Below, piece after piece: positions 1 to 20,000 of a DNA stretch of 20,000 nt (positions are counted from its first letter, which is position 1; each line of letters starts with the position of its first letter). Source of the stretch: Spirogloea muscicola. Its lineage: Eukaryota. The stretch lies in contig WELB01000013.1 of assembly GCA_009602725.1 (NCBI GenBank), positions 236,638 through 256,637 of the forward strand, given 5' to 3'. Position numbers and translations under genes: made by a program. The notes beneath the pieces were generated by a model. The model saw only the letters and a list, made by a program, of their open reading frames with translations, was not told the DNA's origin and did no database searches.

Positions 1-1895
1 CGACCGCAAGCTGCTACTGCCAGTGCTTCCGCTGCCAAGCCGCCAGCGTGTGCAACCTGCCAGCTGCGGGAGGTCCAGGATGGCGCCGCACCCGCTCCAC
101 TGGTCCATATTGGGGCCCACATCAGGTCAAGCAATCAGCAAGCTCTTGGACTTTGCTGTATTTCCTGCAATCCTGAGGACTACGGTGGGGCAGCGGCTGA
201 TTCATGGCAAATGAAGTGCTTGCGGGCAGATTGATTACCTTGGACTCAACAACAACGACACGAGTGACGGAGCTTCGCTGCACCACATCCATGGCAATGG
301 CATCAGCTGAAGGGAAGAGGACCACGGTCGAAGTGGGGTCAAAATGTGGGACGGTACTGCCATTGCCCTCCACTGCGTCGTGGACCTCCACCTGCCCGGG
401 GCAGAGTATCGCCGCCTGCACGCCCGTGCTCATCGTCCGACTCTCCCGCTTGTGCAGCACACTGTCCATGATGCGGCATCTCCAAGTTAGGTGTGCCATA
501 GTCAGGCCACACCCGAACTTCGGGCTTGCTTGCACGCAGGCCGCACCAAAGGCCAGAGGCAGCCCCTCATCTGCTTGACATTTCAAATCTAAATCCTGAC
601 CCTGACCCCATTTCAGACTGTGGATCTGCTACTGCAAGGACCTTGGGAGCGTGGCATCAGCTAGGAGCGAAAGACTGCTACAGAACTTTTCAGCACCACC
701 ACAGTGTGGGGCATCAACTGAACTATGCGGTGCATCACCTGCCGCAACTCCCATACCAAACCCATAAAAGCAGCTAAGTGCGTGCTGCTTCGAGCAGACC
801 GGCCAGACGAGCAGAAAAGCAGAGGATACGAGAGCTAGCAGACAGCATTGCCAGCAGCTCCTTGGGCCAAGGAAAACGGTGACAGCGACTGCAGGAGAGG
901 CGCAGTGGCAACTCAGGGAGCTTGCGGATGAGGGCAAATGCATAACGTGACAGGAGTGGCCTCAGTCCGTCCTAGAACGCTTGTCGACATTGAAGGCGCA
1001 GAGGCCCGCATCCGACATATGCTTGTCAGATACGTTGTTTCGTCGTCATCGGCCACGCCACGAGCACCTCAAGCTCAAGACCACTCTCGTCAGGTCCCCC
1101 TAGACTCTGGCCCCTTCGCCTGGGTGAGAATACAACCACGCCGCACCTACCAGCAAAGAACTTGTGGGCTCTGACTACCGCAAAGCTCGCAACAGCTGCT
1201 CACACCCGGTAAGGCTTTACGACACTCAAACAGGGGCTGTGCATGCAGCCTGCATTAGGCTTGGAATCAGGCCCATCTTTGGGCGTGCCGGAAAGCGGTC
1301 ACTCCTCCACTGCGATCCCCGCCGGCCAGAAGCAGTGGGCGAGCCGCGCAGCGGCAAGCGAGGCCTTGCTGTGGCACTACCGAATCAGCTGTAAGAGCCG
1401 CCAGCGAAGGATGGAGCGAAGAAAGCGCCGGCGGCTACTTCGACACGAGGCTCGGGCTTGCGAGGGTGCGAAGCGGCTTACTCCGGACGTACATGTCAAC
1501 TCGCAGCGGCAGGGCCACGCACGGGACGCCGTCGGTCAAGGCCTGCGGCAGCGGCGGCGACGGCGGCGGCAGCGGCGGCAACAGCAGCGGCGCCGTCAGC
1601 GGTGCAGCAGCAACGATAGGCGCGGGATGGCAGGGCTTGAGGGGTAAGAAGCAGAGGGTTAAAGCTCCAGAGCGGCGGAGGACTTGGGGTTTTCCGGGTT
1701 CTACTGGATCTGGGCAAAGCGATACCAGGAGGCAGGTCGCGCAGAAGAAGCGGCGCGAGATGCCGCAGCCGGGGCAGCGCGGCCGCGCGCCCGCGGCTGC
1801 CGCGGCGCGCTCGAGCGGCGCCGCGNGCCCGCCGAGAGCGGCGGCGGCTCCGCCGGCGGCGGCTCCGCCGGCGGCGGCTGCGTCGTGGAGCCCAT
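1..1895 (-). CDS. DTWD1: DTW-domain protein (tRNA-uridine aminocarboxypropyltransferase, DTWD1-like), 3'-partial, at least 4 exons
   Basis: Hand-spliced exons 1895-1726, 1542-1493, 461-239 and 99-<1, all GT..AG with consistent phases. Protein: MGSTTQPPP...RPRCPGCGISRRFFCATCLL|ALTDGVPCVALPLRVDI|VLHKRESRTMSTGVQAAILCPGQV...VVLFPSADA...VVVVESK|WSGCGAILDLPQL. This matches the DTWD1 pattern (CxxC-SR-xCxxC, LPxxxDI..H..E...ST). A single n at 1826 coincides with a frame change, probably an assembly gap. Confidence 0.85.
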
Positions 1896-2041
1896 GGGCG
1901 AGTAGGGAACCCAGAACCTCGGCGAGGTGGTGTGTGGGCGCCAGCTCCCGTCAGCGTGCACCCGACGACATGACGCCCGGCGGCTGGTGACGCCCCGCCC
2001 CGGAGTAGCTGCCTGGGCGCCGGCCCCGGGCTCTCTACGGC

Positions 2042-2070
2042 CCCTTGCCCCCATTGGGAGAGCCACTTCT
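2042..2070 (+). mobile_element. 29-nt retroposon 3'-terminus insertion with 8-bp TSD
   Basis: cccttgcccccattgggagagccacttct is flanked by tctacggc (2034-2041 and 2071-2078). The same terminal sequence occurs in reverse at about 9104-9128 and 7580-7600. Confidence 0.75.
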
Positions 2071-2255
2071 TCTACGGCGGACCACCGGCTCTTGGGCCTC
2101 CTCCCTCCCTGCCTCGTGGGCGTCACTCAATGCGAGTGCGGTGCCCGTCACGTTGATCCTGCGGAGCTGGCCGCACACATGCTCCGTTGCGCACATGGGG
2201 GCGAGCGGACCGCTTCCCACGACCTCCTGCGAGATGGTATGCAGGAGGTGTTTTC

Positions 2256-2281
2256 AGAGAAGTGCGCGCCCATAGAGAAGA
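2256..2281 (-). mobile_element. 26-nt retroposon 3'-terminus insertion with 8-bp TSD
   Basis: The reverse complement tcttctctatgggcgcgcacttctct matches the copy A terminus at 3186-3215. It is flanked by gtgttttc (2248-2255 and 2282-2289). Removing it restores the host frame EVFSEAGFKVAVE. Confidence 0.85.
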
Positions 2282-2313
2282 GTGTTTTCGGAGGCTGGCT
2301 TTAAGGTCGCGGT

Positions 2314-2512
2314 AGAAGGAAGCGGCTGCTGATAGTAAAAGAGCGGCTGTGAAAGCCAGCCAGATGCATACAGGTGTTCATGACGGAGCCACAGGCTAGG
2401 CAGCCAGGGCGCTCTTAGTAACCCCGTGTCAGCAGTAGGAAGTCAGATGAGCTGAGGGGAGGAAGAGCAACCCCGCTGCGCAAGCCAGAGGCTGCTGCAA
2501 GGGCACGACCAG
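2314..2512 (-). mobile_element. 199-nt antisense insertion (ORF end plus 3' UTR) of a related subfamily with TSD
   Basis: The minus strand encodes GRALAAASGLRSGVALPPLSSSDFLLLTRGY* (stop 2415-2417), then a ggctggctttcacagcc hairpin and a ...gccgcttccttct end. It is flanked by cgcggt (2308-2313 and 2513-2518). Confidence 0.85.
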
Positions 2513-3220
2513 CGCGGTGGAATATTCCTCCATAATGCCCATCCAGCTGGGCGCGGACGGCCAGCCCCATACACGACGCGCCGACCTGGTCGCCATCCCG
2601 CCCGGCGGCGGTCCCCACATCGTCGTTGATGTGGTGACAACTGACTGCATCAACTCCGCCAATCCCACCAGATCGGCGTCGTTTGCAGGGCACGCGGTCG
2701 GCCATGCGGCCCGGGGCAAGGAGCGCAAATATGCTGATCACCCGGTTGGGGATGAATTCGCGGCCCTGGCGATGGATGTACACGGGGCTTTCGGCAGCCG
2801 CTGGCTGGATCTCCTTCAGCGGCTTGCCCGCCAGGCCATTGACCGGCGGCCGGGTCTGCCAGGGGCGATGCCCGGCTTCAACGCAGCCGGTTCGCTCGCA
2901 CAAGTCTTCCGCATGCGCCTGGCCGTATCGCTTCAACGCTCCCTTGCCCACGCCGTCCACACGCGAGCAGGCCGTGCTATGGCCGCCGCCTCTGGGTCTC
3001 CGGCGGAGTGCCTCTTTCCCTGCAGCGAGCTACTCAGACCTGATGTTGCTCACTCGTGGGTACTGAGCTTCCCTCCGTATCGTCTATGTGTTTTGCAGTG
3101 TTTTGTAGTGTAGTCCTTTTTCCGGCTCCTCTTTCTTTGGCTTTGGACATTGTCCATTCTTTTTGGGCTGGCTTTGCTTAGCCCCTCTTCTCTATGGGCG
3201 CGCACTTCGTTCTCTACTGT

Positions 3221-3780
3221 ACTTGTCCATTCCCATGGGCTGGCCTCTCACAGCCACCAGTCGATTGGGCCGCGCTTTCCTCTACTGTGCCTCTGTACTT
3301 AGGCCATTTTGGCCTTCGTTTGTTTCAAATACACGAAGCTTTTCCACTGCCTTCGCGCCATTTTGCGCCTTCCGGCCCATCGGATCTTGTCATTCTTTTT
3401 GGGCTGGCCTTTCCCACTGAGCATCCCTCTGCATCATCATTAATCAGCAAGCGCGGCCAGATTAACGGGTGGCTGGGAGAGGCAAGCCCAAAGGAATGGA
3501 TAAGGTCTGAAGGAGCCGGAGTGCCTACATTATTATTGGTGTGTAACCTTGTCTTTTTCTTTGGATTTGGACATCGTCCATTCTTATTTGGGCTGGCTTT
3601 GCTAGCCCCCCCTTGCTGGACTTCATATACTCGCCCAACCATGCCGAGGGACGTCGTCCAGCAGCACGGCGAGAGAACTCTTCCAGAGACCGGACTGCTT
3701 GCGTTTGATAGTCGCATGCGCTTGTTGGACCTATGGAGAGGGCCTAGGCCAATGCTAGCCGGCCGTGCTCTTGTTGCTGC
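3221..3780. mobile_element. Stack of short retroposon 3'-end fragments (both orientations) plus a degenerate ORF-end remnant
   Basis: Repeated ttgtc(c)attc..gggctggc.. units at about 3222-3279 (TSD ctctactgt at 3212-3220 and 3280-3288), 3387-3420, 3470-3520 (minus) and 3570-3612. A second terminal type ggccattttggccttcgtttgtttcaaa starts at 3302. An RMRL..AGRALVAA remnant lies at about 3710-3780. Confidence 0.7.
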
Positions 3781-4330: not shown

Positions 4331-7025
4331 TCAATCCTTGGCATCGGTGATGCCGCCATTTGTGATCTGGTAGGTGCACTCAGCCTCAGGTAGGCTTGGA
4401 GCATCGTAAACCTTGCAGATCCGCTGCTCACCTTTCCCTTTTCTCAGCATTAGCCTCACAGTCGAGGCGTGGGCAAGGACATGCCCACCTGCCGGCTTCT
4501 TCGGATCAGCAACGAATGTTCCACCGCCAGGATCAGCAATCACTGCAAATGACGGATTGAGGAGGTCAGAGCCTGCAGCTCCTGTCAGTGCAGGCTTGGT
4601 TTAAGAAAAAGTTCAATACTGTCGGCCATGCTTCATGCACACCTTGGTTGGTAATGAATACTGCCACATTGAATTCCTCAGCAATTTTTATCAGCCTGGA
4701 GAGCATCTGCGCCAACTTTTGCTGCAAACATGATGTGCATTTATTAGTAATACTGCTGAGCCTGGAAACGTCAAGCTGTCACTGTCAATCCCAGCCCAAG
4801 CAGCACCGTTGTTGTGGTCTCACAGACCTGGCGCTCAGCAAGCTCTCCACGCCCCGAGAAGTCAACACGGAAGAGAGCTGTGATTGAGTCAACTACCTGC
4901 AAGGTCAACAAGTGAGAGCTGTTGAAGAGCACGTCTCTTCAGTAGCAGATGTGAAAGCTTTTGTGCAAGGGATTCCTGACTATGCATACGGCAGACAGCC
5001 ACGCAGGTCAGAAAAGGTACCAGGAGCTTGAAGGGTTCCTCCGACATTTTGGCAGCCAATCCTAGGAGAAGGTTGAATTGGTGTTCATGTGTGTACGCTC
5101 TAGCATACACTATCTGAGAATTCTCAGAGGCAGTGGACCAGTATCATTGTCAGATACTCCTATAAGATACACCTGAACCCTGAACCGCTCCACAGAACGT
5201 GACCCACGAGGGTCTGGTCAAAGTGCTTACATTATCAAGCACAGCACTCGCGTCCAAGCCAAATCTTTCTGCAATTGGCACAATGCGCTCTGGACGGCTG
5301 CGGGCGGCTAAGGCAAGTGTGACTGGTGCCAAGTACTACCAAAGGTCTTCATGTAGAGGCTTGAGATGCTAAAATTCCGAAAAATTCTTTGTACTCATCA
5401 CCAAGCCACAGAGTATAGATAGAAATGACAGACATCATAGCATGTCTCGCACTGACTCGTTAGAGGATACAAAGTTCCTTCGGTGTCGACGTACGCAACC
5501 TTGCCATTCCCTCCATTCATTGACAAAGGTAACTGACAAGTCACATTTGAAGATGTTGCTCAGCAGCAATTAACATCTTAAGATGATGCACGATTAGTGA
5601 TGCGACAATAAGCCCACAGCTGCTTTTTGGCAGCAGAAAATGTTGCACCCACAATAAAAACATGACAAGAGGACGGCTCCGTACTTGGGTTGACACGCAT
5701 AGAGTGTGTGCGATCTGTGTCTTCCCAGTCCTGCACAGTGGAGAAATTAGATTGCAAGATGTGAAGTATCAAGAATGGACAGTCATATCAGTAGACTATC
5801 TACCCAGCACAGGCAATGCACAAGATACATGATTACACACCATGCGATCTGTTCCAGCAACAATCCAATCTCCAACTTAATTCCTCGAATTTGTGGCACT
5901 TGTGGTAAGAGTGCAGGGAACTAGCTTAGTACCTGAACTCGCCAAATGCTTCTGTGATAGACATGGTTTCAATACCTCCTGCACACTTGCTGTGAACAAT
6001 TTATTTCTCAAACAGATCATTGACAGCAGTGCCACAATGCCATAAATGCGGCCGTAAAATCGCGCATGTGACACGAGGATGGCAACTAGCAAGCAAGCCC
6101 TTACCTCCGAGCAACTCATCAAATGCTGAACTTCCTGTGGTTATTTTGACGACTGCTTTTCTCTGGACGGGGCCACTGAAGCAGATCTGAGGGCCTATGC
6201 TTATACTTCAAAGCTCAGCCTTCTGTATAAGTGCAACAATGCCATGCTAAATGGCTCCTAGAACTGATAAACTGCTGACCTTATGCTTAACATCTTTGTC
6301 TAGACTGACCTTGTTTAGTATTTCGGTGCCTGTCGAGTAACCAAGGTTCTGCCACAGACGTATATGTCAGTGTCAAATACAGGTTGGAAAAAGCGTAAGC
6401 AGATAACATATATTTATCTGCCCTACACGCGTAGAAGCAGTATGGCAAGCTGGAACTTACAACTAGCTTCTCTGAGGCTTCCAGGATCTTGTCGACCTTT
6501 GCTTCTGAGAGACCCTTAATGTTGCAAAGAGCCTGAATCAACGGCGGGCGAACAGGCCTTCAGTGCCAAAGCAATGACTCAACAAAGACAATGAAAAGCC
6601 AATGAGACATTCTCGCCAGTTGAGTCTCCCTGGTGTGTGCCTTCATGCGTCTAGTGACTAACGTGAGTCATGTTATGCCAGCTTCTTCACACCTTTTTGG
6701 TTCTCATCATTAGTCCATTGCATGTGAAGATACCAGCCTCCTGCAGCTTCTTGACATCGCCAGCGTTTATGCCATGCGCTGTTACTGCAGATCAAGAATG
6801 AAGATGCAGCGTTGCCTGTGCGGAAGTGCGCCGTACGTTGATGAGGTGTTGGATATAGGGTGTTATGCATGCAAAGCTGGCATCAGTCGAATAGAGGAGC
6901 TCTGTGGTATCCTGAGGGGCTCTGAGCCAGTGAGTTCGTGTCAAACGCTTGTCAATGGGCTCGAAGCAGTCTTCCTCCTCGTCTGACTCGTGCTTGAGGC
7001 CCTTGTCTTCCATTTGCGCGGCCAT
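4331..7025 (-). CDS. DMC1: Meiotic recombinase DMC1, 13 exons, 337 aa, intact
   Basis: Exons 7025-6947, 6784-6693, 6532-6461, 6348-6310, 6162-6105, 5978-5933, 5730-5685, 5532-5471, 5297-5231, 5113-5021, 4896-4828, 4721-4643 and 4542-4331 total 1014 nt, all GT-AG and in frame. Walker A is GEFRTGKT and Walker B is LLVVDS. DMC1-type segments are [49 protein letters not shown] and [16 protein letters not shown], whereas RAD51 has GGNIMAHAS. Confidence 0.97.
5298..5470 (-). other. Putative U12-type (minor spliceosome) GT-AG intron in DMC1
   Basis: The donor reads TT|GTATCCTC (U12 consensus RTATCCTT). A branch-like TGCCTTAGC (consensus TCCTTAAC) lies about 10 nt before CAG, and there is no polypyrimidine tract. 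Confidence 0.65.
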
Positions 7026-7473
7026 GGATGAAGACAGGTCAGCCGCGCGCGGCTGCCAGCGCCTGGCCGGTCCCGCCGTAGTCCTCCGGGCTGATCACGT
7101 CGCAAGGCCAAGCGGACTGACTGGCGGGCCAGCAGAATGGCCACCGGTGCGACGGCGCCTGCCCGATTGGCGGCGTCTGCGGCGGAGATGCGCAGGCCTC
7201 TGGCAAGTACGTGCGCCAGATCGCGGCGGCGGCGGCGGCGACGGCGGCGGCGGCGGCGATTTACCTCCTGGCCGGGCGCGGTGCTGACGATGGGCGGGGT
7301 ATCGAGCTGGATCTCAGCCAGTCAGTCCAGCCAGTGGCCCATCAGGCCCGCTACAGTGGGGAGAGGGGAGCTGCTGGTGCCCGTCGGATCGTGCACTGCA
7401 TCGGACGGCATCGGGACGACCCGCACTGGAAGCCTGAGCCTGCAATAATAACCTTTTTCCTAAGAAATTCGAA

Positions 7474-7650
7474 CCTTGTCAATTCTTTCGGGCTGGCTTT
7501 TCACAGCCCTTGCCCCCCTTTGGGAGTGCCTCCTCTCTGATCCCGCCCGTAACGACGACGAAACAGCGCGTCCAAATTGAGAAGAAGTGGCTCTCCCAAT
7601 GAAAGATTTCCGTGTCTTTGAAACAATCGAAGGCCAAAATGGCCAAGTAC
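7474..7650. mobile_element. Tail-to-tail retroposon 3'-end fragments upstream of DMC1
   Basis: Plus fragment ccttgtcaattctttcgggctggcttttcacagcccttgccc...tcctctct spans 7474-7538. Minus fragments lie at 7580-7600 and 7601-7650; the latter closely matches the reverse complement of 3295-3344. Confidence 0.75.
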
Positions 7651-7692
7651 AAATGCAAGCACATCTTATGACGTAGTAGCTAGCATCTAGCA

Positions 7693-7980
7693 GCTTCTAG
7701 AGCTGCTAGAGTAGGAGTAAGGCAGCAGCAAAGGTAGGAGGAGGGATGGCCGGGGGGGAGAGAAGGGCCGGCAGTGCCCCTGGAGGCCTTTCCTGCGTCC
7801 GCTTCTGGAGCTGCTAGAAGAGTGAGGCAGCAGCAGTGGCAGGAGGAATGGAGGGGGAGAGAAAGAGGGCCGGAAGTGCAGAAGGGAGTGGGGCCTTGTC
7901 GACCTGTCCTGCTGGAGCTGCTAGAAGGAGAGTGGGGCAGCAGCAGTGGCAGGAGGGATGGCAGGGGAAGGGGAGAATCT
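7693..7980 (+). repeat. Diverged tandem repeat, about 3 x 107-108 bp, purine-rich
   Basis: The core ct(g/a)gagctgctaga..agt..ggcagcagca..gg..ggagg.atgg recurs at 7697, 7805 and 7912. Confidence 0.75.
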
Positions 7981-8794
7981 CCCCTCAATGACGCCCTCAC
8001 ACTCCCGGACGAGGTGTTTCGCAGTGCCGTCCACCGGCTCCTGGGCCTGCCGCCACCATGTCTCCAGGGTGTGCAACAGTAAATGTGGCGAGCGAGGGGC
8101 CGAGCCTGGGGAGCTGGCCGCTCATGTTCTGCGCTGTTCCCACGGCGGAGAGCGGACAGCGGCCCACAACCGTCTCCGGGATGCGATGCATGGCATCCTT
8201 GTGGAGGCCGGCTTCTCAATGGCAGCCGAGAACTCCGCCGTCATGCCGCTCCAGCAACGGGCCGACGGTCTCGACGCGAAGAGCGCGTCTCCACGCTCTT
8301 CGCGTCGACCTTGTGGCCACTGCACCAGCCGGCGGGCCACGTCTTCTCCTGGACGTGGTGACCACTGACTCGTATGACCGCTCACACCCAGCCCAGTGTG
8401 CCACCAAGGCTGGGTATGCGGTAGCCTGCGTCGCTCGGGCCAAGGAGCTAAAATACGCAGATCACCCGCGGGAAGACGAGTTTTTCCCGCTCGCCATCGA
8501 TACGCACGGGGCGCTGGGCGCTCGGTGGCTCGAGCTGCTCAACCAGGTCTCACGCCACGCCATTGTCCGCCGCTTCCATGGGGAGCCGGTGGACTCCCAC
8601 GCAGCAGGGTCGCTAGCGCAGGTGTACCGCATGCGCTTGGCCGTCTCGCTGCAGAGGTCTATGGCCCGCGCGCTGCACCTGCGTGCAGGCAGAGCCCTCG
8701 CTGCTGCCTCTGGCTCTGGCCAGGGAACCCGCTTCCAGGAACCCAGTCTCTCTGACCTGAGGCTGCTTAGCAGGGGTTACTGAGTGCTTCGTAG
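7978..8794 (+). mobile_element. 5'-truncated CRE-like RLE retrotransposon, copy B (second subfamily), frameshifted
   Basis: LTLPDEVFRSAVHRLLGLPPPC / KCG..ELAAHVLRCSHGGERTAAHN / RVDLV..LLLDVV..KELKYADHP..FFPLAIDTHGALG..RMRLAVSLQRS..SDLRLLSRGY* (stop 8781-8783), spread over three frames. Confidence 0.88.
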
Positions 8795-9145
8795 AGAAAG
8801 GCCGAAAGTGCCGCTGAGGGCCTTGTTGACCTGGCCTGCGCCCCCCATGGGGGCTGAAAGCCAGCCCGAAAAGAAGTGACAAAGGTTCGAAGGGGCCAAA
8901 TAACGGAGGGGCCTAAAACGCTTTGTCAGAACGGATGTAGGATAGGAACTGAGAGCAGTGGCTGTCAGAGGAGAAGGCGCGCGGTGCGCATGAAAATGAA
9001 ATAGAGGCCAATTCTGGCCTTACAAATGTCCTTTTAACTGGGTAATGAGCTGGCTAAGGGGGCTATCAGAAGAAGGGATCGCCCATTGAGAACAGGGGAA
9101 GCAGTGGCTCTCCCAATGGGGGCAAGGGGCTATGAGGCCAGCCCG
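8795..9145 (-). mobile_element. Minus-strand retroposon 3'-end fragments
   Basis: gggctgaaagccagcccgaaaagaagtgacaaagg (about 8851-8885) and gtggctctcccaatgggggcaaggggctatgaggccagccc (9104-9144) are reverse copies of the terminal hairpin unit. Confidence 0.65.
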
Positions 9146-10595
9146 CCCGAAGGACCGGCTGGGGCTCGTCGGGAAGCGTACGCGTCCTTCGACACCGGCA
9201 TCCTGGCGAGCGCGGCGGCCACCCTTCTCCAGCCCGCCAGCCGCTCTGCTGCAGGCTAGCCTGCCTGTCAGCCGCGGCGGCTTGGGCTGCCGCCCAGTTG
9301 CCCGCGCCTTTGAGGCGGCATACCTGGGCAGTTGGGGACAGGTCGCCGTTCCCATCTGCCAGCGCTTCCTCGTCCACGGCAATCGCGCCCTGGAGCGGGC
9401 GGCAGCTGAAGTGGAGACCGGCCAGCTGCCCTTCCTGGCAGCCCTCCGTTCTGCCCGCGACGGGCTCCTGGCGGCCCACCCCGACTTGTCGGAGCAGGCG
9501 TTCCCCTTCGTTCACCTCGCCCACACCCCTGACCTGCGTGCCCAGGCACGCTACATGGTGCTGGCGGAGAAGGTGGCCTTCGACAAGGCAGTGAGGCTCG
9601 TTCCTCGGCACGACCTTCGAGGGCGTGCCCGGCTCCTGTCGGCCTCCTCGCCCGGGGCGGCAGCGTGGTTAACTGCGCCTCCCCTTTACGCGGCGCTAAT
9701 CATGCCCGACGCAGTCTTGTGCACGGCCGTCCACCGGCTCCTGGGCCTCCTCCCTCCCTGCCTTGTCGGTGTAATGCAGTGTGAGTGCGGAGCCCGCCAC
9801 GCCGACGCGGTGAGCTGGCTGCTCACATGCTCCGCTTGCGCACGGAGGCGAGAGGACCGGATCCCACGACCTCATGAGGGACGGCATGCACGGAGTGTTC
9901 CTGGAGGCGGGCTACACGGTGGCCGTGGAGAACACTTCCATCATGCCCATCCAGCTGGGCGCGGGACGGTCAGCTCCATACCCGGCGCGCCGACCTGGTC
10001 GCCATCCCGCCTCGGAGGAGGTCCTCGCATCATCGTGGATGTGGTGACCGTCGACTGCGTCGACTCCGCCAACCCCACCAGATCGGCGTCGACCGCAGGG
10101 CACGCGGTCGGCCTGGCGGCCCGTGGCAAGGAGCGTAAGTTCGCCGACCATCCTGCTGGTGATGGAAAAGCGGCACTGGCGGTTGACGTCCACGGGGCTT
10201 TCGGCAGTCGCTGGCTGGACCTCCTCCAGAGGCTTGCCCGGCAGGCCATTGATCGGCGGCCGGGTCAGCCAGGGGAGCTGCCCGGCTTCAACGCTGCTGG
10301 CTCGGTAACGCAGGTCTTCCGCATGCGGCCGTCGGTCTGTTTCCAGCGATCCCTGGCTCACGCAGTCCACTAGCGAGCAGGCCGCGCCATGGCTGCTGCA
10401 TCTGGGTCTAGGCGGAGTGCTTCTTCCCCAGCTGCGAGTTACTCGGACTTGCTGCTGCTCACTCGTGGGTACTAAGCTTCCATCTGCGTTGTCTCGTGTC
10501 TAGCTGTGTACTTTCTTTTCGGCACCTTTTGGCTCTCTGGATCTTGTCCACTCTTTTGGGCTGGCCTTGTTCAGCCCATCTTCTCTATGGGCGGT
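9146..10595 (+). mobile_element. Longest CRE-like RLE retrotransposon copy (C): RT-thumb end, zinc knuckle, RLE and 3' UTR; pseudogenised
   Basis: QASLPVSRGGLG (thumb), ARLLSASSPGAAAWLTAPP and AVHRLLG (CRE-like post-RT motifs), CECG..H..C, IIVDVV, KERKF, VDVHGAFG. It has several frameshifts, a premature TAG at 10371-10373, the original stop LLTRGY* at 10473-10475 and a hairpin at 10558-10577. No RT core (YxDD) is present. Confidence 0.9.
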
Positions 10596-10828
10596 GGCTG
10601 GGGAGAGGCCTGCCCAGAAAATTGCATTACCAAGTTTGAAGGGGCCAGGGAAAGCGCTTCAGCACACAGGGAATCAAAGAGCTACGAAACACTCAGTAAC
10701 CCCTGCTGAGCAGCCATAGGTCGGAGAAACTGGTCTCCTGGTAGCGGGTCCCCTGGCTAGGGCCAGAGGCTGCAGCTAAGGCACGACCGGCACGCAGATG
10801 CAGCGCAAGAGCCATGGACCTCTGCAGC
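10596..10828 (-). mobile_element. Antisense 3' fragment, subfamily of copy B
   Basis: The minus strand reads LQRSMALALHLRAGRALAAASGPSQGTRYQETSFSDLWLLSRGY* (stop 10693-10695), followed by the 3' UTR and hairpin. Confidence 0.85.
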
Positions 10829-11630
10829 AAAGAAAGTGCTCTCTCAAAGAAGGTAGGGGCTGGAAAAGAAGAAAAGCGCTTTCAGGAGAGGGCGGTGGCT
10901 GTGACAGGCCAGCCCAAATAGAATGAACAAGGTCCAAAGAGCCGACAGGTGAAGGTGCCTAAAACCACACAGCGAGACACGAGACTACCGCAGATGGAGG
11001 CTCATTAAGGGGGCAAGAACTGTGAAAAGCGAGCCTGAAAAAAAGATCTGACAAGGTCTGAAGGGGCCGAGAAAGCGCTGAAACAAATTTCTAGGCAAGT
11101 ACGACGTAAGATAATCCATAAGTAACCTTTATTTAGCAGCCGCAAATCAGGAAGACTAGCCGCCAGGAAGAAAGAAGGAAAGTGGCTCTCTCAAAGGGGA
11201 AAGACTCTTCCAGTAGAGGTCGATGGCTTTGATTGGACAGCCCAGAAAATGGAATGAACAAAGTTCGAAGGGGGCGAGGGCTGTGGAAAGCCAGCCCGAA
11301 AAATCTGAAATTCTGAAAGTCCGAACGGGCCGAATGGCGCTGAAAGACGTAAGTATGCAGGAAGCAAGGAAGCAGTCTCCTTTACGGAAGCCAGAGGCTG
11401 CAGCTAGAGCACGGCCAGCGCACGCAGGTTCAGGAAAAAAAATAAGTAATTTCATGCAAAAAAGATGAGCTCTTTCACAGGGGACGGGAGCCAGCCCAGA
11501 AAGAATGAACAAGAAAGGAACACTCTTCCAGTAGAGGGCGATGGCTGTGGGTGGCAAGCCCAGTAAAGAGAATGAACAAAAGAGGTTAGAAAAGCGCCAA
11601 AGCACACAGCGACTCAAGTGGCCACTGGGT
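10829..11630 (-). mobile_element. Head-to-tail array of short retroposon 3' ends
   Basis: About seven terminal units of the type ag(a)aag..gc..ggctg..gccagccc.aaa.gaatgaacaag occur near 10830, 10870-10945, 11010-11070, 11170-11265, 11270-11305, 11460-11512 and 11513-11585. An AGRALAAASG ORF end lies at about 11385-11428. Confidence 0.75.
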
Positions 11631-11929
11631 GCTCAATAATCCCTGTTGAGCGGCCGCAGGTCAGAGTAACTAAGTCTCCGTGTAGGGGGTCCCCTGTCTG
11701 TAGCCAGAGGCTGCATCCAAAAAGCGACCGGCACGCAGATGCCGCGTGTGCCATTGACCGCTGCAGCAATACTGACAGGCGCGTGCGATACATCTGGCGA
11801 GAGAGCCTGCCGCGTTGAATCCGGCCTGCTCCCCTTGGTAACGTCAGGACACAGCGCTGCGCGCTAGCCGGTGCAGGAGCTCAAGCCACCAAGAGCCGAA
11901 CGCCCCCGTGGACGTCGATGGCAAGGGGG
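11631..11929 (-). mobile_element. Degenerate RLE-domain fragment (subfamily of copy B)
   Basis: The minus strand gives PLAIDVHG.., WLELLHRLARSA, FNAAGSL, QMYRTRLSVLLQRSMAH and DLRPLNRDY*, with frameshifts. Confidence 0.8.
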
Positions 11930-12562
11930 ATGAACAAGGTCAAAAGGGCCGGAAGGCGCCAAACCCACACAGCTATGCAAGAAGAAACAGCTCTTACAAA
12001 TTAAAGAAAAAAAGCTCGTCCAAAGGGGGCGGGGGACTGTGAATGGCCAGCCCAGAAAGAATGAACAAGGTCCAAAGGGCCGAAAGGCGCCAAACCCCAC
12101 AGCAATGCAAGAAACTACAGCGAATGGGAGCTGAGTAATAGTCAGCAGCCGCAAATCGGAGTAAGCTGGGAAAGAGGCACCCCGACGAGCCCCAGAAGCA
12201 GCAGCCATGGCACGGCCTGCCCGCGCAAGGGCACTGCGTGAGCTTAGGACCGTTGGAAAAATGTGGATAGCGGCATACGAAATACCTGGGCAAGCGACCC
12301 AGCGTCGTTAGCCGGGCAGCTCAGCTTGCTCCCTGCCGACGATCAATGGCCCGCCGGACAAGCCGCTGCAGAAGGTCCAGCCATCGCCTGCCGAACGCCC
12401 CGTGCACGTCCATCGCCAGCGCCACAAACCCATCGTCGGCTGGGAGATCCGCATATTTCTCGTTGCCGCTGGCAGCCTTGCGTCGACCGCCCTGCTTCCG
12501 ACGCCGATTGGGTGGGGTTGGCGGAGTCGACGGAGTCGGTAGTCACGACGTCCGCGATGATC
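11930..12562 (-). mobile_element. Degenerate RLE-domain copy (subfamily of A/C) with 3' UTR and a duplicated UTR segment
   Basis: IIADVVTTDSVDSANPTQSASEAG, KYADLPADDGFVALAMDVHGAFGRRWLDLLQRL, AGRAMAAASGARRGASFPAYSDLRLLT. The UTR segment 12061-12121 is repeated at 11930-11992. Confidence 0.85.
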
Positions 12563-12621
12563 CAAGAGACCAAGTAACCAAAGAAGTGAGCTCTTCTAAG
12601 TAGGGCGGGGGCGGGGGCGGG

Positions 12622-13177
12622 NNNNNNNNNNNNNNNNNNNNNNNNNNNNNNNNNNNNNNNNNNNNNNNNNNNNNNNNNNNNNNNNNNNNNNNNNNNNNNN
12701 NNNNNNNNNNNNNNNNNNNNNNNNNNNNNNNNNNNNNNNNNNNNNNNNNNNNNNNNNNNNNNNNNNNNNNNNNNNNNNNNNNNNNNNNNNNNNNNNNNNN
12801 NNNNNNNNNNNNNNNNNNNNNNNNNNNNNNNNNNNNNNNNNNNNNNNNNNNNNNNNNNNNNNNNNNNNNNNNNNNNNNNNNNNNNNNNNNNNNNNNNNNN
12901 NNNNNNNNNNNNNNNNNNNNNNNNNNNNNNNNNNNNNNNNNNNNNNNNNNNNNNNNNNNNNNNNNNNNNNNNNNNNNNNNNNNNNNNNNNNNNNNNNNNN
13001 NNNNNNNNNNNNNNNNNNNNNNNNNNNNNNNNNNNNNNNNNNNNNNNNNNNNNNNNNNNNNNNNNNNNNNNNNNNNNNNNNNNNNNNNNNNNNNNNNNNN
13101 NNNNNNNNNNNNNNNNNNNNNNNNNNNNNNNNNNNNNNNNNNNNNNNNNNNNNNNNNNNNNNNNNNNNNNNNNNNNN
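12622..13177. other. Assembly gap (556 N)
   Basis: Run of n with G-rich sequence on the left and C-rich sequence on the right. Confidence 0.99.
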
Positions 13178-13245: not shown

Positions 13246-13303
13246 GCTATAAGAAGGAAGATTTCGTTCCTTTGAAACAGTCGTAGGCCGATAGGCTATA
13301 AGA
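13246..13303. mobile_element. 40-nt antisense retroposon-terminus insertion whose 9-bp TSD contains a TATA-like box
   Basis: gctataaga at 13246-13254 and 13295-13303 flanks aggaagatttcgttcctttgaaacagtcgtaggccgatag, which resembles 7601-7635 (gaaagatttccgtgtctttgaaacaatcgaaggcc). Confidence 0.7.
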
Positions 13304-17906: not shown

Positions 17907-19892
17907 TCAGCGCCTCATGATACGCCCCCAATCTGTGGCAGATCCTTGGTCCCAAACAGAAAAGTCGTCGCTGTTGACAATGGTGGCAGCTGCGCCGTCC
18001 TTGAAGCTTGCTGAGCGTGGCATGGCCCACAGGTAACTGAGTTGTGGGGATTCTTGCCATGCAGCGCCCTTGTTGTCAGCACCATCCACCAGGAGCGCGG
18101 GAAGTGACTGTCCTGTGGCCTCTTGAAGCAATGAGATGGCGCGGCGGTGTGTGGGCGACGCCAGAGGCGGTGAAGGGTCCGCAGCGGCGGCGTCAGTCAT
18201 GGCGTCGTCATCAAGCCAGGGGTCGTCGTAGTAGCACTGCGTGCTATTGAGGGGCGAGCTGCGGCTGCTGCTGGTCGAGGAGAATGGCGACGCAGCGATG
18301 GGCGACAGCGTTGGCACATGCGGCCGCACCTTGTACCGGCAGCCTGCATGACCAGCCGCCGCCGCCGCCGCAGCCATTGCAGCAGCCGAGGAGGACATGA
18401 TCAAAATCCATCCACCATGCAAGCATCCCTTGCCTACTAATGCGGTTCTACAGGAACCAGTTCCGACCAGTCTCATCAATTTGCGGCGCCGACTGAATGT
18501 CAGAGCCACCACCTTCAGTGACTTCCATATGATATTGGTAAAAGCAAAGCGTATCAATCTCGATGTCCAAGCCAAATGCTCAGCTCACCGTTGGCACGCG
18601 CAGCCGGGGGCCCCAGCTGGGCACGGCACGTCGCGGCCTCCTCGAGCAGCAGCCGGCCTTTCTGCACGACGAAGAGCGAGCAGCCTGGCGGCTTGTGCTC
18701 TCGGCAGTAAACTCCGCAGCTCCCAATGCTCCTGCTCAGCATCACGCCGAGGCCGGTCATCAACGTCCCCGACCGGCACAAAGGTGACCTTGCCTGAGCA
18801 AGCAATGCCGTTGCTGCACACCACGCCCATGCCTCATCGAGTGCTCCGTGGCCTTCTAAGCATTTATCGCTCTCAGTGGCCTCAGGGTGGTGATGAGCAC
18901 GGTGCAGGCCGTTGCTTATTGAGTGGCGCATTGCAGCTACATCCAAGCAGGGCAATGGGCGGGCGCAGGGGGCGGTACCATGTGACCTGGTCGAACATCT
19001 TGCCAAGGAGAAGCTTGGGCAGAAAGCGCGCGGGTGAGCGGCCAAGCACGAGCTTCACCATGCCCGTTAGCAGCTTCACCTCCTCGATGACTCCCCGCCC
19101 CTTTTCTGCATGGACAGCCACCTTGATCTCCACTGGCAGCTGCGAAGGTGGCCACCGTGGCACAAGAGAAGAGTCAACGGCAGCACAAGGCCCATCAGCA
19201 CTGCCGCTGGCGCTGGCTATTGAGGTGTTGGAATAGTGCGGCGCAGCACGGCCGCCCTGCATTGTCGGCTACTGCAGTACTCGCTGGTGAGAAGGCAGCC
19301 ACTGCCCACCTCGAACTCGGCCTTGCAGTATGCCTGGAGCCGCGTGATGGCCGGCAGCACCGCCGCCTGGACGTGCGCTGCCAGGCCTCTAGCGTGCGCG
19401 GCGCCGCCGCCCTTGGGCGAGGACCCGTCCACTGCGACGCCGCCGCAGGCAGCGGCCGTCAGCTCCTGACGAGCCCCCGCCGTGGAGGCCCCACAGGCGC
19501 TGACGCCGAAGCAGGCAGGCGTAGCGGCAGAGGAGGAGCTCGCCGCCAGAGCGGCAGTGGGGTCTCGGCCGTCAACAGCTTGCGGCAAGACGTAGTGGAG
19601 ATGGTGCAGGAGTAACGGAGTGGGTATTGGGTGATGGAGGGCCTGAGTGGCCAAGTACAGTGGCAAGCATATCGACAGGTGTACATGACCTCCTGCTAGA
19701 GAGAGGGAGGGAGGTGGGCGCGCTCTCACGGGCTTCGGGCGGCGGCGGCGGTGGCGGCGGCGGCGGCTTGGCGACGTGGAGGAGGATGGTGGCGTCGAAC
19801 GGCTGCCACAGCTTCTCGACCGCCCACCGGATGGCCTCGCGCGCCGTCGCGCCGTCGCCGCCCACCACCACCACCAGGCTCCGGCCCCCCAT
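17907..19892 (-). CDS. Universal stress protein (USP/adenine nucleotide alpha-hydrolase-like) domain protein with low-complexity C-terminal tail
   Basis: Exon 19892-19730: MGGRSLVVVVGGDGATAREAIRWAVEKL..DATILLHV. Exon ending at 19310: ..LQAYCKAEFE. Exon 19139-18987: VEIKVAVHAEKGRGVIEEVK..LVLG. Exon about 18793-18589: GSCGVYCREHKPPGCSLFVVQKG. Last exon 18343-17907. The acceptors of exons 2 and 4 are uncertain. Confidence 0.78.

Positions 19893-19929: not shown

Positions 19930-20000
<71 letters not shown>
19930..20000. repeat. Poly-T tract (at least 71 nt, runs off the window)
   Basis: Direct observation. Confidence 0.95.

What the first reader, a model, noticed from the sequence alone, without database searches (positions are those of the whole stretch)
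2034..2518. Ultra-short (26-59 nt) retroposon 3'-terminus insertions with clean TSDs that start at YTCY
Seen: within about 500 bp of one old copy there are three nested insertions, 29 nt (TSD tctacggc), 26 nt (TSD gtgttttc) and 199 nt (TSD cgcggt). Removing the latter two restores the host frame EVFSEAGFKVAVEYSSIMP. Two more cases lie at 3221-3279 (TSD ctctactgt) and 13255-13294 (TSD gctataaga). Read in element orientation, every insert ends in ...YTCT with no poly(A). Each TSD begins with TCT/CTCT, or extends by one mismatch to CTCY-GAAAACAC or TTCY-ACCGCG. Known: RLE non-LTR elements insert by target-primed reverse transcription and are often sequence-specific. Inference: this family primes by TCT microhomology at a short degenerate site (often TCT|AC) and aborts very early, scattering micro-inserts that repeat finders would miss.
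Basis: partly seen in the sequence, partly recalled or inferred. Interest (0 to 1): 0.85.

Follow-up and report, generated by a model that had tools for sequence, protein, structure and literature searches.

The report
Tiny LINE tails after tail-like sites
Five short DNA inserts (26-199 letters) with duplicated flanks are real and match the very last letters of abundant repeats that are likely LINE-type jumping genes of an alga; they are ordinary in kind, but likely land just after, rather than being primed from, a four-letter site that resembles their own tail.

Summary
All five inserts and TSDs are exactly as described. Inserts 1-4 are 3' termini of a high-copy, poly(A)-less non-LTR family with a C-terminal CCHC finger and restriction-like endonuclease (CRE-like). 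Intact relatives model onto R2 proteins, and homologues occur in Closterium; insert 5's link to this family is inferred. Two corrections. (1) Only inserts 2 and 3 lie inside the host copy; 1 and 4 sit on its two junctions. (2) The TCT is the element's own tail, so the TSDs are probably 5-8 nt and begin after YTCY. In the two informative cases the target has YTCC but the 3' junction has the element's TCT; primer annealing predicts the opposite. All 4 tail/target differences are U:G-wobble compatible, which fits RNA-tail positioning upstream of the nick, a model already proposed for EhLINE1 (PMC1635306). The two shortest inserts stop at a conserved 3'-UTR stem-loop. No genome was held, so the target logo and length distribution remain untested (four independent sites). 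Verdict: new member of a known kind, with a testable twist.

The parts
2037..3215 (+). Host copy: 5'-truncated RLE non-LTR element (end of linker, CCHC finger, RLE, 3' UTR, tail ending TCT), interrupted by inserts
   Evidence: 5' limit from loose ends at 2074
2042..2073 (+).
   Evidence: (family ends at 2073; continues upstream of 2042 into the shared UTR)
2037..2041 (+).
2256..2281 (-). Insert 2: last 26 nt of the host-type subfamily, inside the host ORF
   Evidence: 24/24 identical to 3185-3208; 3 of 7 joints land at 2256, none further out
2282..2289 (-). TSD 2 upstream copy GAAAACAC (partner 2248-2255), preceded by CTCC
2314..2512 (-). Insert 3: last 199 nt (ORF end plus 3' UTR) of another subfamily, with 5-nt 5' microhomology to its TSD
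   Evidence: family alignment runs to 2517, then loose end
2513..2518 (-). TSD 3 upstream copy ACCGCG (partner 2308-2313), preceded by TTCC
3165..3184 (+). Predicted conserved 3'-UTR stem-loop (GGGCTG-loop-YAGCCC) of the host; homologues in most UTR copies
   Evidence: 5/5 pairs in 11 of 16 copies; folding z-scores not significant
3221..3283 (+). Insert 4: last 63 nt of a third subfamily, exactly on the host's 3' junction
3216..3220 (+). TSD 4 upstream copy ACTGT (partner 3284-3288), preceded by the host's own tail CTCT
13252..13294 (-). Insert 5: 43-nt 3' end of a related repeat (other copies 7603-7657 and 3288-3335); link to the RLE ORF inferred, not shown
13295..13300 (-). TSD 5 upstream copy TATAGC (partner 13246-13251), preceded by CTCT
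9237..10593 (+). Longer uninterrupted paralogous copy (about 1.4 kb) giving the empty-site state for inserts 2 and 3
   Evidence: 32% over 394 aa to P0013
8005..8784 (+). Second, more diverged uninterrupted paralogous copy

Best explanation
The five inserts match element 3' ends and carry short flanking duplications, and are likely dead-on-arrival, 5'-truncated copies of a poly(A)-less CRE-like RLE non-LTR retrotransposon family, likely made by target-primed reverse transcription from a nick placed just after YTCY. Shown: exact 3' termini, variable 5' truncation, flanking duplications, a pyrimidine tail ending TCT, and YTCY upstream of all five sites. Inferred: the bottom strand is nicked after YTCY; the RNA's ...UCU tail probably helps pick or hold the site by pairing (with U:G wobble) to the bottom strand just upstream of the nick, and is then copied to its last base; a second nick 5-8 nt downstream gives the TSD; the 5' end joins by short microhomology or end-joining. 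Each junction keeps or re-creates a YTCY site, so copies pile up on each other's ends. The shortest copies probably arise when RT stalls at the conserved 3'-UTR stem-loop about 30 nt from the end.
For: Protein: window copies match P0013 (RVT_1) at 32% over 394 aa and profile A3 at 98.5% probability. A3 hits R2 proteins first in the PDB, and the P0013 model (pLDDT 92.7) matches R2 best, TMq 0.55. The host's finger/RLE spacing fits the CRE/MoTeR motif in PMC12857005. Ends: the insert-1 family ends at 2073; 3 of 7 joints into insert 2 land at 2256 and none beyond. Nick position: in cases 2 and 3 the upstream letter is C and the junction letter is the element's T; the case-2 C is conserved in both paralogues. 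Over the last 4 nt of the five tails, all 4 differences are element T / target C, and all 7 element Cs face target C. Chance of a compatible 4-mer is 0.021-0.038 per site, about 8e-4 for sites 2 and 3 together. Precedent: EhLINE1/SINE1 tail pairing to the upstream bottom strand was proposed in PMC1635306. Stem-loop: 5/5 pairs in 11 of 16 copies versus shuffled mean 1.5, max 6; inserts 1 and 2 start in or 2 nt past its 3' arm; 7 of the 9 tandem back-joints shown start in its loop or arm.
Against: Only four independent target sites: inserts 1 and 4 probably hit the two copies of one original site, and site 4's YTCY is the host's own tail. Case 2's difference lies in a CpG and could be later deamination. 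Some paralogues carry T at the case-3 position (table 5c, joint 2316-2526), so that difference could also be a later change. Cases 1, 4 and 5 fit primer annealing equally well. RNA pairing cannot be told from a plain DNA preference of the nuclease with this n. Stem-loop folding is not better than shuffles (z -1.14 to +0.48 for five copies), its conservation may be common descent, and the tandem joints are also explained by tail-loop microhomology. No RT-bearing copy is in the window, no tree with named CRE references was built, and no RNA run was listed.
Confidence: 0.6

Rival explanations
1. One reading: the nick falls before (Y)TCY, the RNA tail anneals to the primer end over 3-4 nt, and the TSD includes the TCT; the mismatches in cases 2 and 3 are later mutations.
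For: Fits cases 1, 4 and 5 with perfect 8-9-nt TSDs. Short primer pairing is established: avian R2 needs at least 4 nt (PMC13580325), and about 80% of ZfL2-2 3' junctions show microhomology (PMC2666801). C>T is the commonest change among family contigs; the case-2 site is a CpG; the case-3 site is polymorphic in the family.
Against: It needs two independent post-insertion changes at the same relative position, both giving the element's letter at the junction, whereas the 30 other paired TSD bases show no mismatch. My rough odds, on assumed rates, are about 10:1 against.
Confidence: 0.2
2. Same nick position as the best model, but the RLE protein alone prefers YTCY in DNA. The tail resembles the target only because tails were captured from, or selected to re-create, target sites; no RNA-DNA pairing is involved.
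For: Explains the junction letters equally well. A dispersed RLE with a loose DNA consensus is known: EhLINE1 endonuclease prefers GCATT in vitro. Self-targeting at junctions 1 and 4 fits.
Against: It does not predict that every tail/target difference is wobble-compatible (4 of 4), though this is weak because YTCY tolerance would look similar.
Confidence: 0.15
3. The short pieces are DNA-level events: repair-templated insertions, slippage or recombination among abundant repeats, or assembly artefacts.
For: Repeat-dense window with an N gap (12622-13177). Many tandem 3' units show tail-loop microhomology and no visible TSD. No junction was bridged by 31 letters on both sides in the rows shown.
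Against: Inserts 1 and 2 end precisely at their families' 3' termini. Inserts 2 and 3 split an ORF whose empty state is seen in two paralogues. A separately assembled contig carries the 5' junction of insert 1 with 0 mismatches.
Confidence: 0.05

Closest known systems
CRE-clade RLE non-LTR retrotransposons (CRE1/2, SLACS, MoTeR, FoTeR; dispersed CRE families of Ectocarpus)
   Same: RT followed by C-terminal CCHC finger and RLE with matching motif spacing; TSD formation (PMC3636483); mostly truncated copies; dispersed high-copy CRE families exist (4821 copies, 30 intact; PMC12477816).
   Different: No multicopy gene or telomere target, only a 4-nt degenerate site; TSD 5-8 nt; longer C-H spacer (12 aa) and SHD instead of RHD. 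Clade not tested by a tree.
EhLINE1/EhSINE1 of Entamoeba histolytica
   Same: Dispersed RLE element with a T-rich tail and a tail-like stretch upstream of the insertion point; tail pairing with the upstream bottom strand was proposed for it (PMC1635306).
   Different: There the T-rich region lies 10-35 bp upstream and the example TSD is 22 bp; here the match is 4-5 nt flush with the inferred nick and TSDs are 5-8 nt. Relationship of the proteins not tested.
R2 (R2Bm, avian R2Tg) and L2-type ZfL2-2 primer-annealing TPRT
   Same: Closest solved structures are R2 proteins; 5' truncation and 5' microhomology joins.
   Different: Their 3' microhomology lies on the primer side of the nick; here the two informative junctions carry element letters, pointing to the upstream side. 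No rDNA targeting.

Membership tests
RLE non-LTR retrotransposon | C-terminal CCHC finger plus PD-(D/E)xK-type RLE after an RT domain | tested here: met
   Motif spacing in host and P0013; RVT_1 in P0013; R2 best sequence and fold match for the relatives. The RT itself is absent from the window's truncated copies.
RLE non-LTR retrotransposon | TPRT signature: fixed 3' end, variable 5' truncation, TSD | tested here: met
   3' end fixed by contigs for inserts 1 and 2 only
CRE clade | REL motif C-X1-3-C-X7-8-H-X3-4-C-X9-10-RHD/N-X19-33-E-X9-21-R/KPD-X12-14-D/E (PMC12857005) | tested here: inconclusive
   Host spacing 1,12,3,8,SHD,19,17,RRAD,14: catalytic part fits, finger spacers and R deviate; similar motifs occur in other RLE clades
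CRE clade | RT phylogeny grouping with CRE1/SLACS/Cnl1/MoTeR | not tested
   No named CRE reference was returned by any search
CRE clade | Strict targeting of a multicopy gene or telomere repeat (typical, not universal) | tested here: not met
   Sites are a retrotransposon ORF, element junctions and the region upstream of an LRR gene
Primer-annealing TPRT (avian R2, ZfL2-2 type) | Target letters retained at the 3' junction where tail and target differ | tested here: not met
   2 of 2 informative junctions carry the element letter; later mutation not excluded
EhLINE1/SINE1-type upstream tail pairing | Tail-like sequence upstream of the nick that the RNA tail can pair with | tested here: met
   4-5 pairable nt in 5 of 5 sites, four of them independent; pairing itself not testable
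SINE / non-autonomous partner | Own 5' head (tRNA-like or other) joined to a LINE 3' tail | tested here: not met
   Inserts 1, 2 and 4 begin inside the shared 3' UTR and insert 3 inside the ORF; insert 5's family has no ORF link in the window, so it stays open for that one

The most novel reading that the evidence does not exclude
A CRE-like LINE family whose insertion site is chosen by its own RNA tail: the last 4-5 nt pair, with U:G wobble, to the strand upstream of the nick. Subfamilies with different tails would then have different targets, every insertion re-creates a target, and a 3'-UTR stem-loop caps a large class of 26-45-nt micro-insertions present in very many copies. This would be a genome-scale readout of a mechanism so far only proposed for EhLINE1.
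Probability: 0.25. Interest if true: 0.68.

Novelty: new member of a known kind. Interest (0 to 1): 0.38.

Why it matters
Practically, a very abundant class of 26-60-nt inserts would escape repeat annotation and can hit regulatory DNA: insert 5 duplicates a TATA-like motif upstream of an LRR gene. Mechanistically, the junctions separate two ways in which an RLE element's RNA tail could meet its target, and thousands of copies with varied tails would make the untested EhLINE1 upstream-pairing model testable from sequence alone. RLE proteins are also of interest as insertion tools, so a tail-programmed site preference would be useful if true. If only the ordinary reading holds, it adds a CRE-like family in zygnematophyte algae that my ten literature searches did not find described.

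Tried and rejected
No genome was held, so the genome-wide logo, length distribution and homeologous empty sites could not be done. Pfam found nothing in the four window element fragments scanned. phmmer of P0013 against the PDB found nothing; the profile did. The Atlas gave only unnamed eukaryotic clusters. No RNA holder was listed. Summed contig depth (2.3 million at 2050-2062 versus 73 in the unique flank) indicates abundance but is not a copy number. The 38 metagenome loci showed no DNA similarity to the window. I found no convincing TSD around the closest two (L002, L003), so the tail/target rule could not be tested in relatives. The TCT^AC preference could not be tested: only 6 of 66 loose-end rows were shown. 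Rejected: 'three inserts nested within the host'; a SINE reading for inserts 1-4; folding energy as proof of the stem-loop. Scan look-ups by place and sequence were empty. Literature searches listed no paper describing this family; the library lacks most subscription papers and Repbase reports.

Full report
Observation. All five repeat pairs and insert lengths are exactly as reported. With inserts 2 and 3 left out, the host frame is open and aligns gap-free at both sites to two uninterrupted copies at 8.0 and 9.7 kb, which gives the empty-site state. Direct repeats of this size occur by chance: about 2 8-mer pairs 20-70 nt apart per 1.66 kb in 200 shuffles, versus 16 observed. A match flush with a homology-defined boundary has P about 0.01, 0.003 and 0.0003 for 5-, 6- and 8-mers, so five among roughly 20 element ends is not chance. 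Most other ends have no visible TSD: of the 16 UTR copies in A2, only inserts 3 and 4 do. A contig from run X2 covers 1985-2067 with 0 mismatches, 26 letters into insert 1. That is short of the tool's bridging rule, and X1-X4 are one sample, probably the window's source.

What the element is. The host fragment's best longer hits are 12 EukProt SM-prefixed gene models and P0013, 13 hits in all. I recall SM as the prefix of a zygnematophyte alga, Spirogloea muscicola; no call names the window's organism. P0013 has RVT_1, matches the window copies at 32% over 394 aa, and 4 of 10 relatives looked up are Closterium proteins. A 70-sequence profile hits R2 proteins first in the PDB, then LINE-1. The P0013 model (pLDDT 92.7) matches R2 best, TMq 0.55. 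The host's finger/RLE spacing is 1,12,3,8,SHD,19,17,RRAD,14, close to the CRE/MoTeR motif in PMC12857005 (passages). So it is an RLE non-LTR element, probably CRE clade; no tree with named references was possible. The two closest metagenome relatives end in (GTTATT)n-like repeats, also without poly(A). Insert 5's family has no ORF link in the window; its assignment rests on its tail and target.

Anatomy corrected by read contigs. Family contigs continue upstream of 2074 with coding sequence that the window lacks (21-28 contigs per run), so the host is 5'-truncated at ACGGC and insert 1 sits on its 5' junction; insert 4 sits on its 3' junction. Both junctions read CTCT^AC, which suggests the host itself entered one CTCT^AC site and that both ends were hit again (inference). 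The insert-1 family continues upstream of 2042 into the shared UTR (35 contigs) and ends at 2073, followed by unrelated flanks (76 contigs, agreement 0.36, 6 of 66 loose-end rows shown). The TCT is therefore element tail. Of 7 joints into insert 2, 3 land at 2256 and none beyond. The insert-3 family aligns to 2517, so 5 of its 6 upstream TSD letters are 5' microhomology. Read this way, the inserts are 32, 26, 199, 63 and 43 nt, with TSDs of 5, 8, 6, 5 and 6 nt.

Which side of the nick? If the RNA tail annealed to the primer end, the DNA primer's letters would survive at the 3' junction (standard TPRT logic). In cases 2 and 3 the upstream site reads CTCC and TTCC, but the junction reads CTCT and TTCT, the element's letters. 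The case-2 C is shared by both paralogues. The simplest reading is a nick after YTCY, with the tail copied to its last base. Against this: the case-2 site is a CpG, and some paralogues have T at the case-3 position (table 5c), so two later mutations could rescue annealing; I put that at roughly 10:1 against on assumed rates. Over the last 4 nt of the five tails, all 4 differences from the target are element T / target C, and all 7 element Cs face C. That is what an RNA tail pairing to the upstream bottom strand with U:G wobble would allow. Chance per site is 0.021-0.038, about 8e-4 for sites 2 and 3, which did not need TCT to be noticed. Only four sites are independent. Upstream tail pairing was proposed for EhLINE1/SINE1 (PMC1635306, passages), so the idea is not new. 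Primer-side pairing is documented for avian R2 (PMC13580325, passages) and ZfL2-2 (PMC2666801, passages). A protein-only YTCY preference remains a close rival.

Why so short? A GGCTG-loop-YAGCC stem lies about 30 nt from the end and pairs fully in 11 of 16 UTR copies (shuffled mean 1.5, max 6). Tails diverge strongly, but folding is no better than shuffles and common descent is not excluded. Insert 1 starts in the stem's 3' arm and insert 2 two bases past it; insert 5 starts in a small hairpin of its own family. In one search, 9 of the 12 shown (of 19) between-letter rows are head-to-tail 3' units of about 35-67 nt, and 7 of these 9 begin in the loop or arm. This supports frequent very short copies and a stall at the stem-loop. 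Those tandem units mostly lack a TSD and show tail-loop microhomology, so slippage or template jumping may explain them. The window also has copies of 0.8-1.4 kb, and 5' truncation is normal for non-LTR elements (PMC2881922, passages).

Comparison and novelty. TSD-forming, mostly truncated, dispersed CRE families are known (PMC3636483; PMC12477816; passages). Non-poly(A) ends are known. I also saw passages of PMC6895275, bioRxiv 10.1101/845669, PMC4640811, PMC3747384, PMC9977147 and PMC11331408; no full texts or supplements were read. Ten searches listed no description of this family, in a library lacking most subscription papers and Repbase. Unchecked scan notes describe similar ultra-short LINE tails in other genomes; one pointed me to EhLINE. 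Verdict: real, a new member of a known kind, interest 0.38.

Noticed in passing
window 13246-13303: Insert 5 duplicates a TATA-like motif (GCTATAAGA) about 110-165 nt upstream of the ATG (13411) of an LRR gene (LRRNT_2 and LRR hits); a possible promoter change.
   Followed up: no
window 4331-7025, minus strand: Multi-exon Rad51-family recombinase gene (Pfam Rad51 on the last exon); I recall the sequence as DMC1-like. Element clusters lie on both sides of it (2034-3650 and 7430-12620).
   Followed up: partly
window 9069-9147, 10831-10918 and 7580-7657, minus strand: Ends of two different subfamilies joined head to tail with no TSD between them, the downstream piece only 22-32 nt; candidates for RT template jumping or slippage.
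   Followed up: partly
contigs of run X2 laid on 1985-2350: All 9 listed joints join the insert-1-type 3' end to an opposite-strand 3' end of the insert-2 or insert-3 type: tail-to-tail clustering of subfamilies elsewhere in the genome.
   Followed up: no
P0001: A predicted 755-aa gene model that is nine near-identical tandem repeats of the RLE C-terminal piece, i.e. a satellite-like array of an element fragment annotated as a gene. Several other SM gene models are also element chimeras.
   Followed up: no
L002:3790-3830 and L003:3700-3750: The closest intact relatives end in short (GTTATT)n-like repeats without poly(A); no TSD found.
   Followed up: partly
window about 3000: The host copy has one extra base relative to its family (1 letter left out in 48-55 contigs per run), shifting the frame just before the stop at 3064.
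   Followed up: partly
window 7693-7976: Three tandem purine-rich units of about 105-110 nt directly upstream of the 8.0-kb element copy.
   Followed up: no
window 1435-1950 and 17907-18584, minus strand: Open frames without a Pfam hit; the first has a CxxC-x7-CxxC motif and starts about 140 nt from insert 1.
   Followed up: partly
window 12622-13177 and 19930-20000: A 556-nt N gap and a poly(T) run to the window end; assembly quality is limited there.
   Followed up: no
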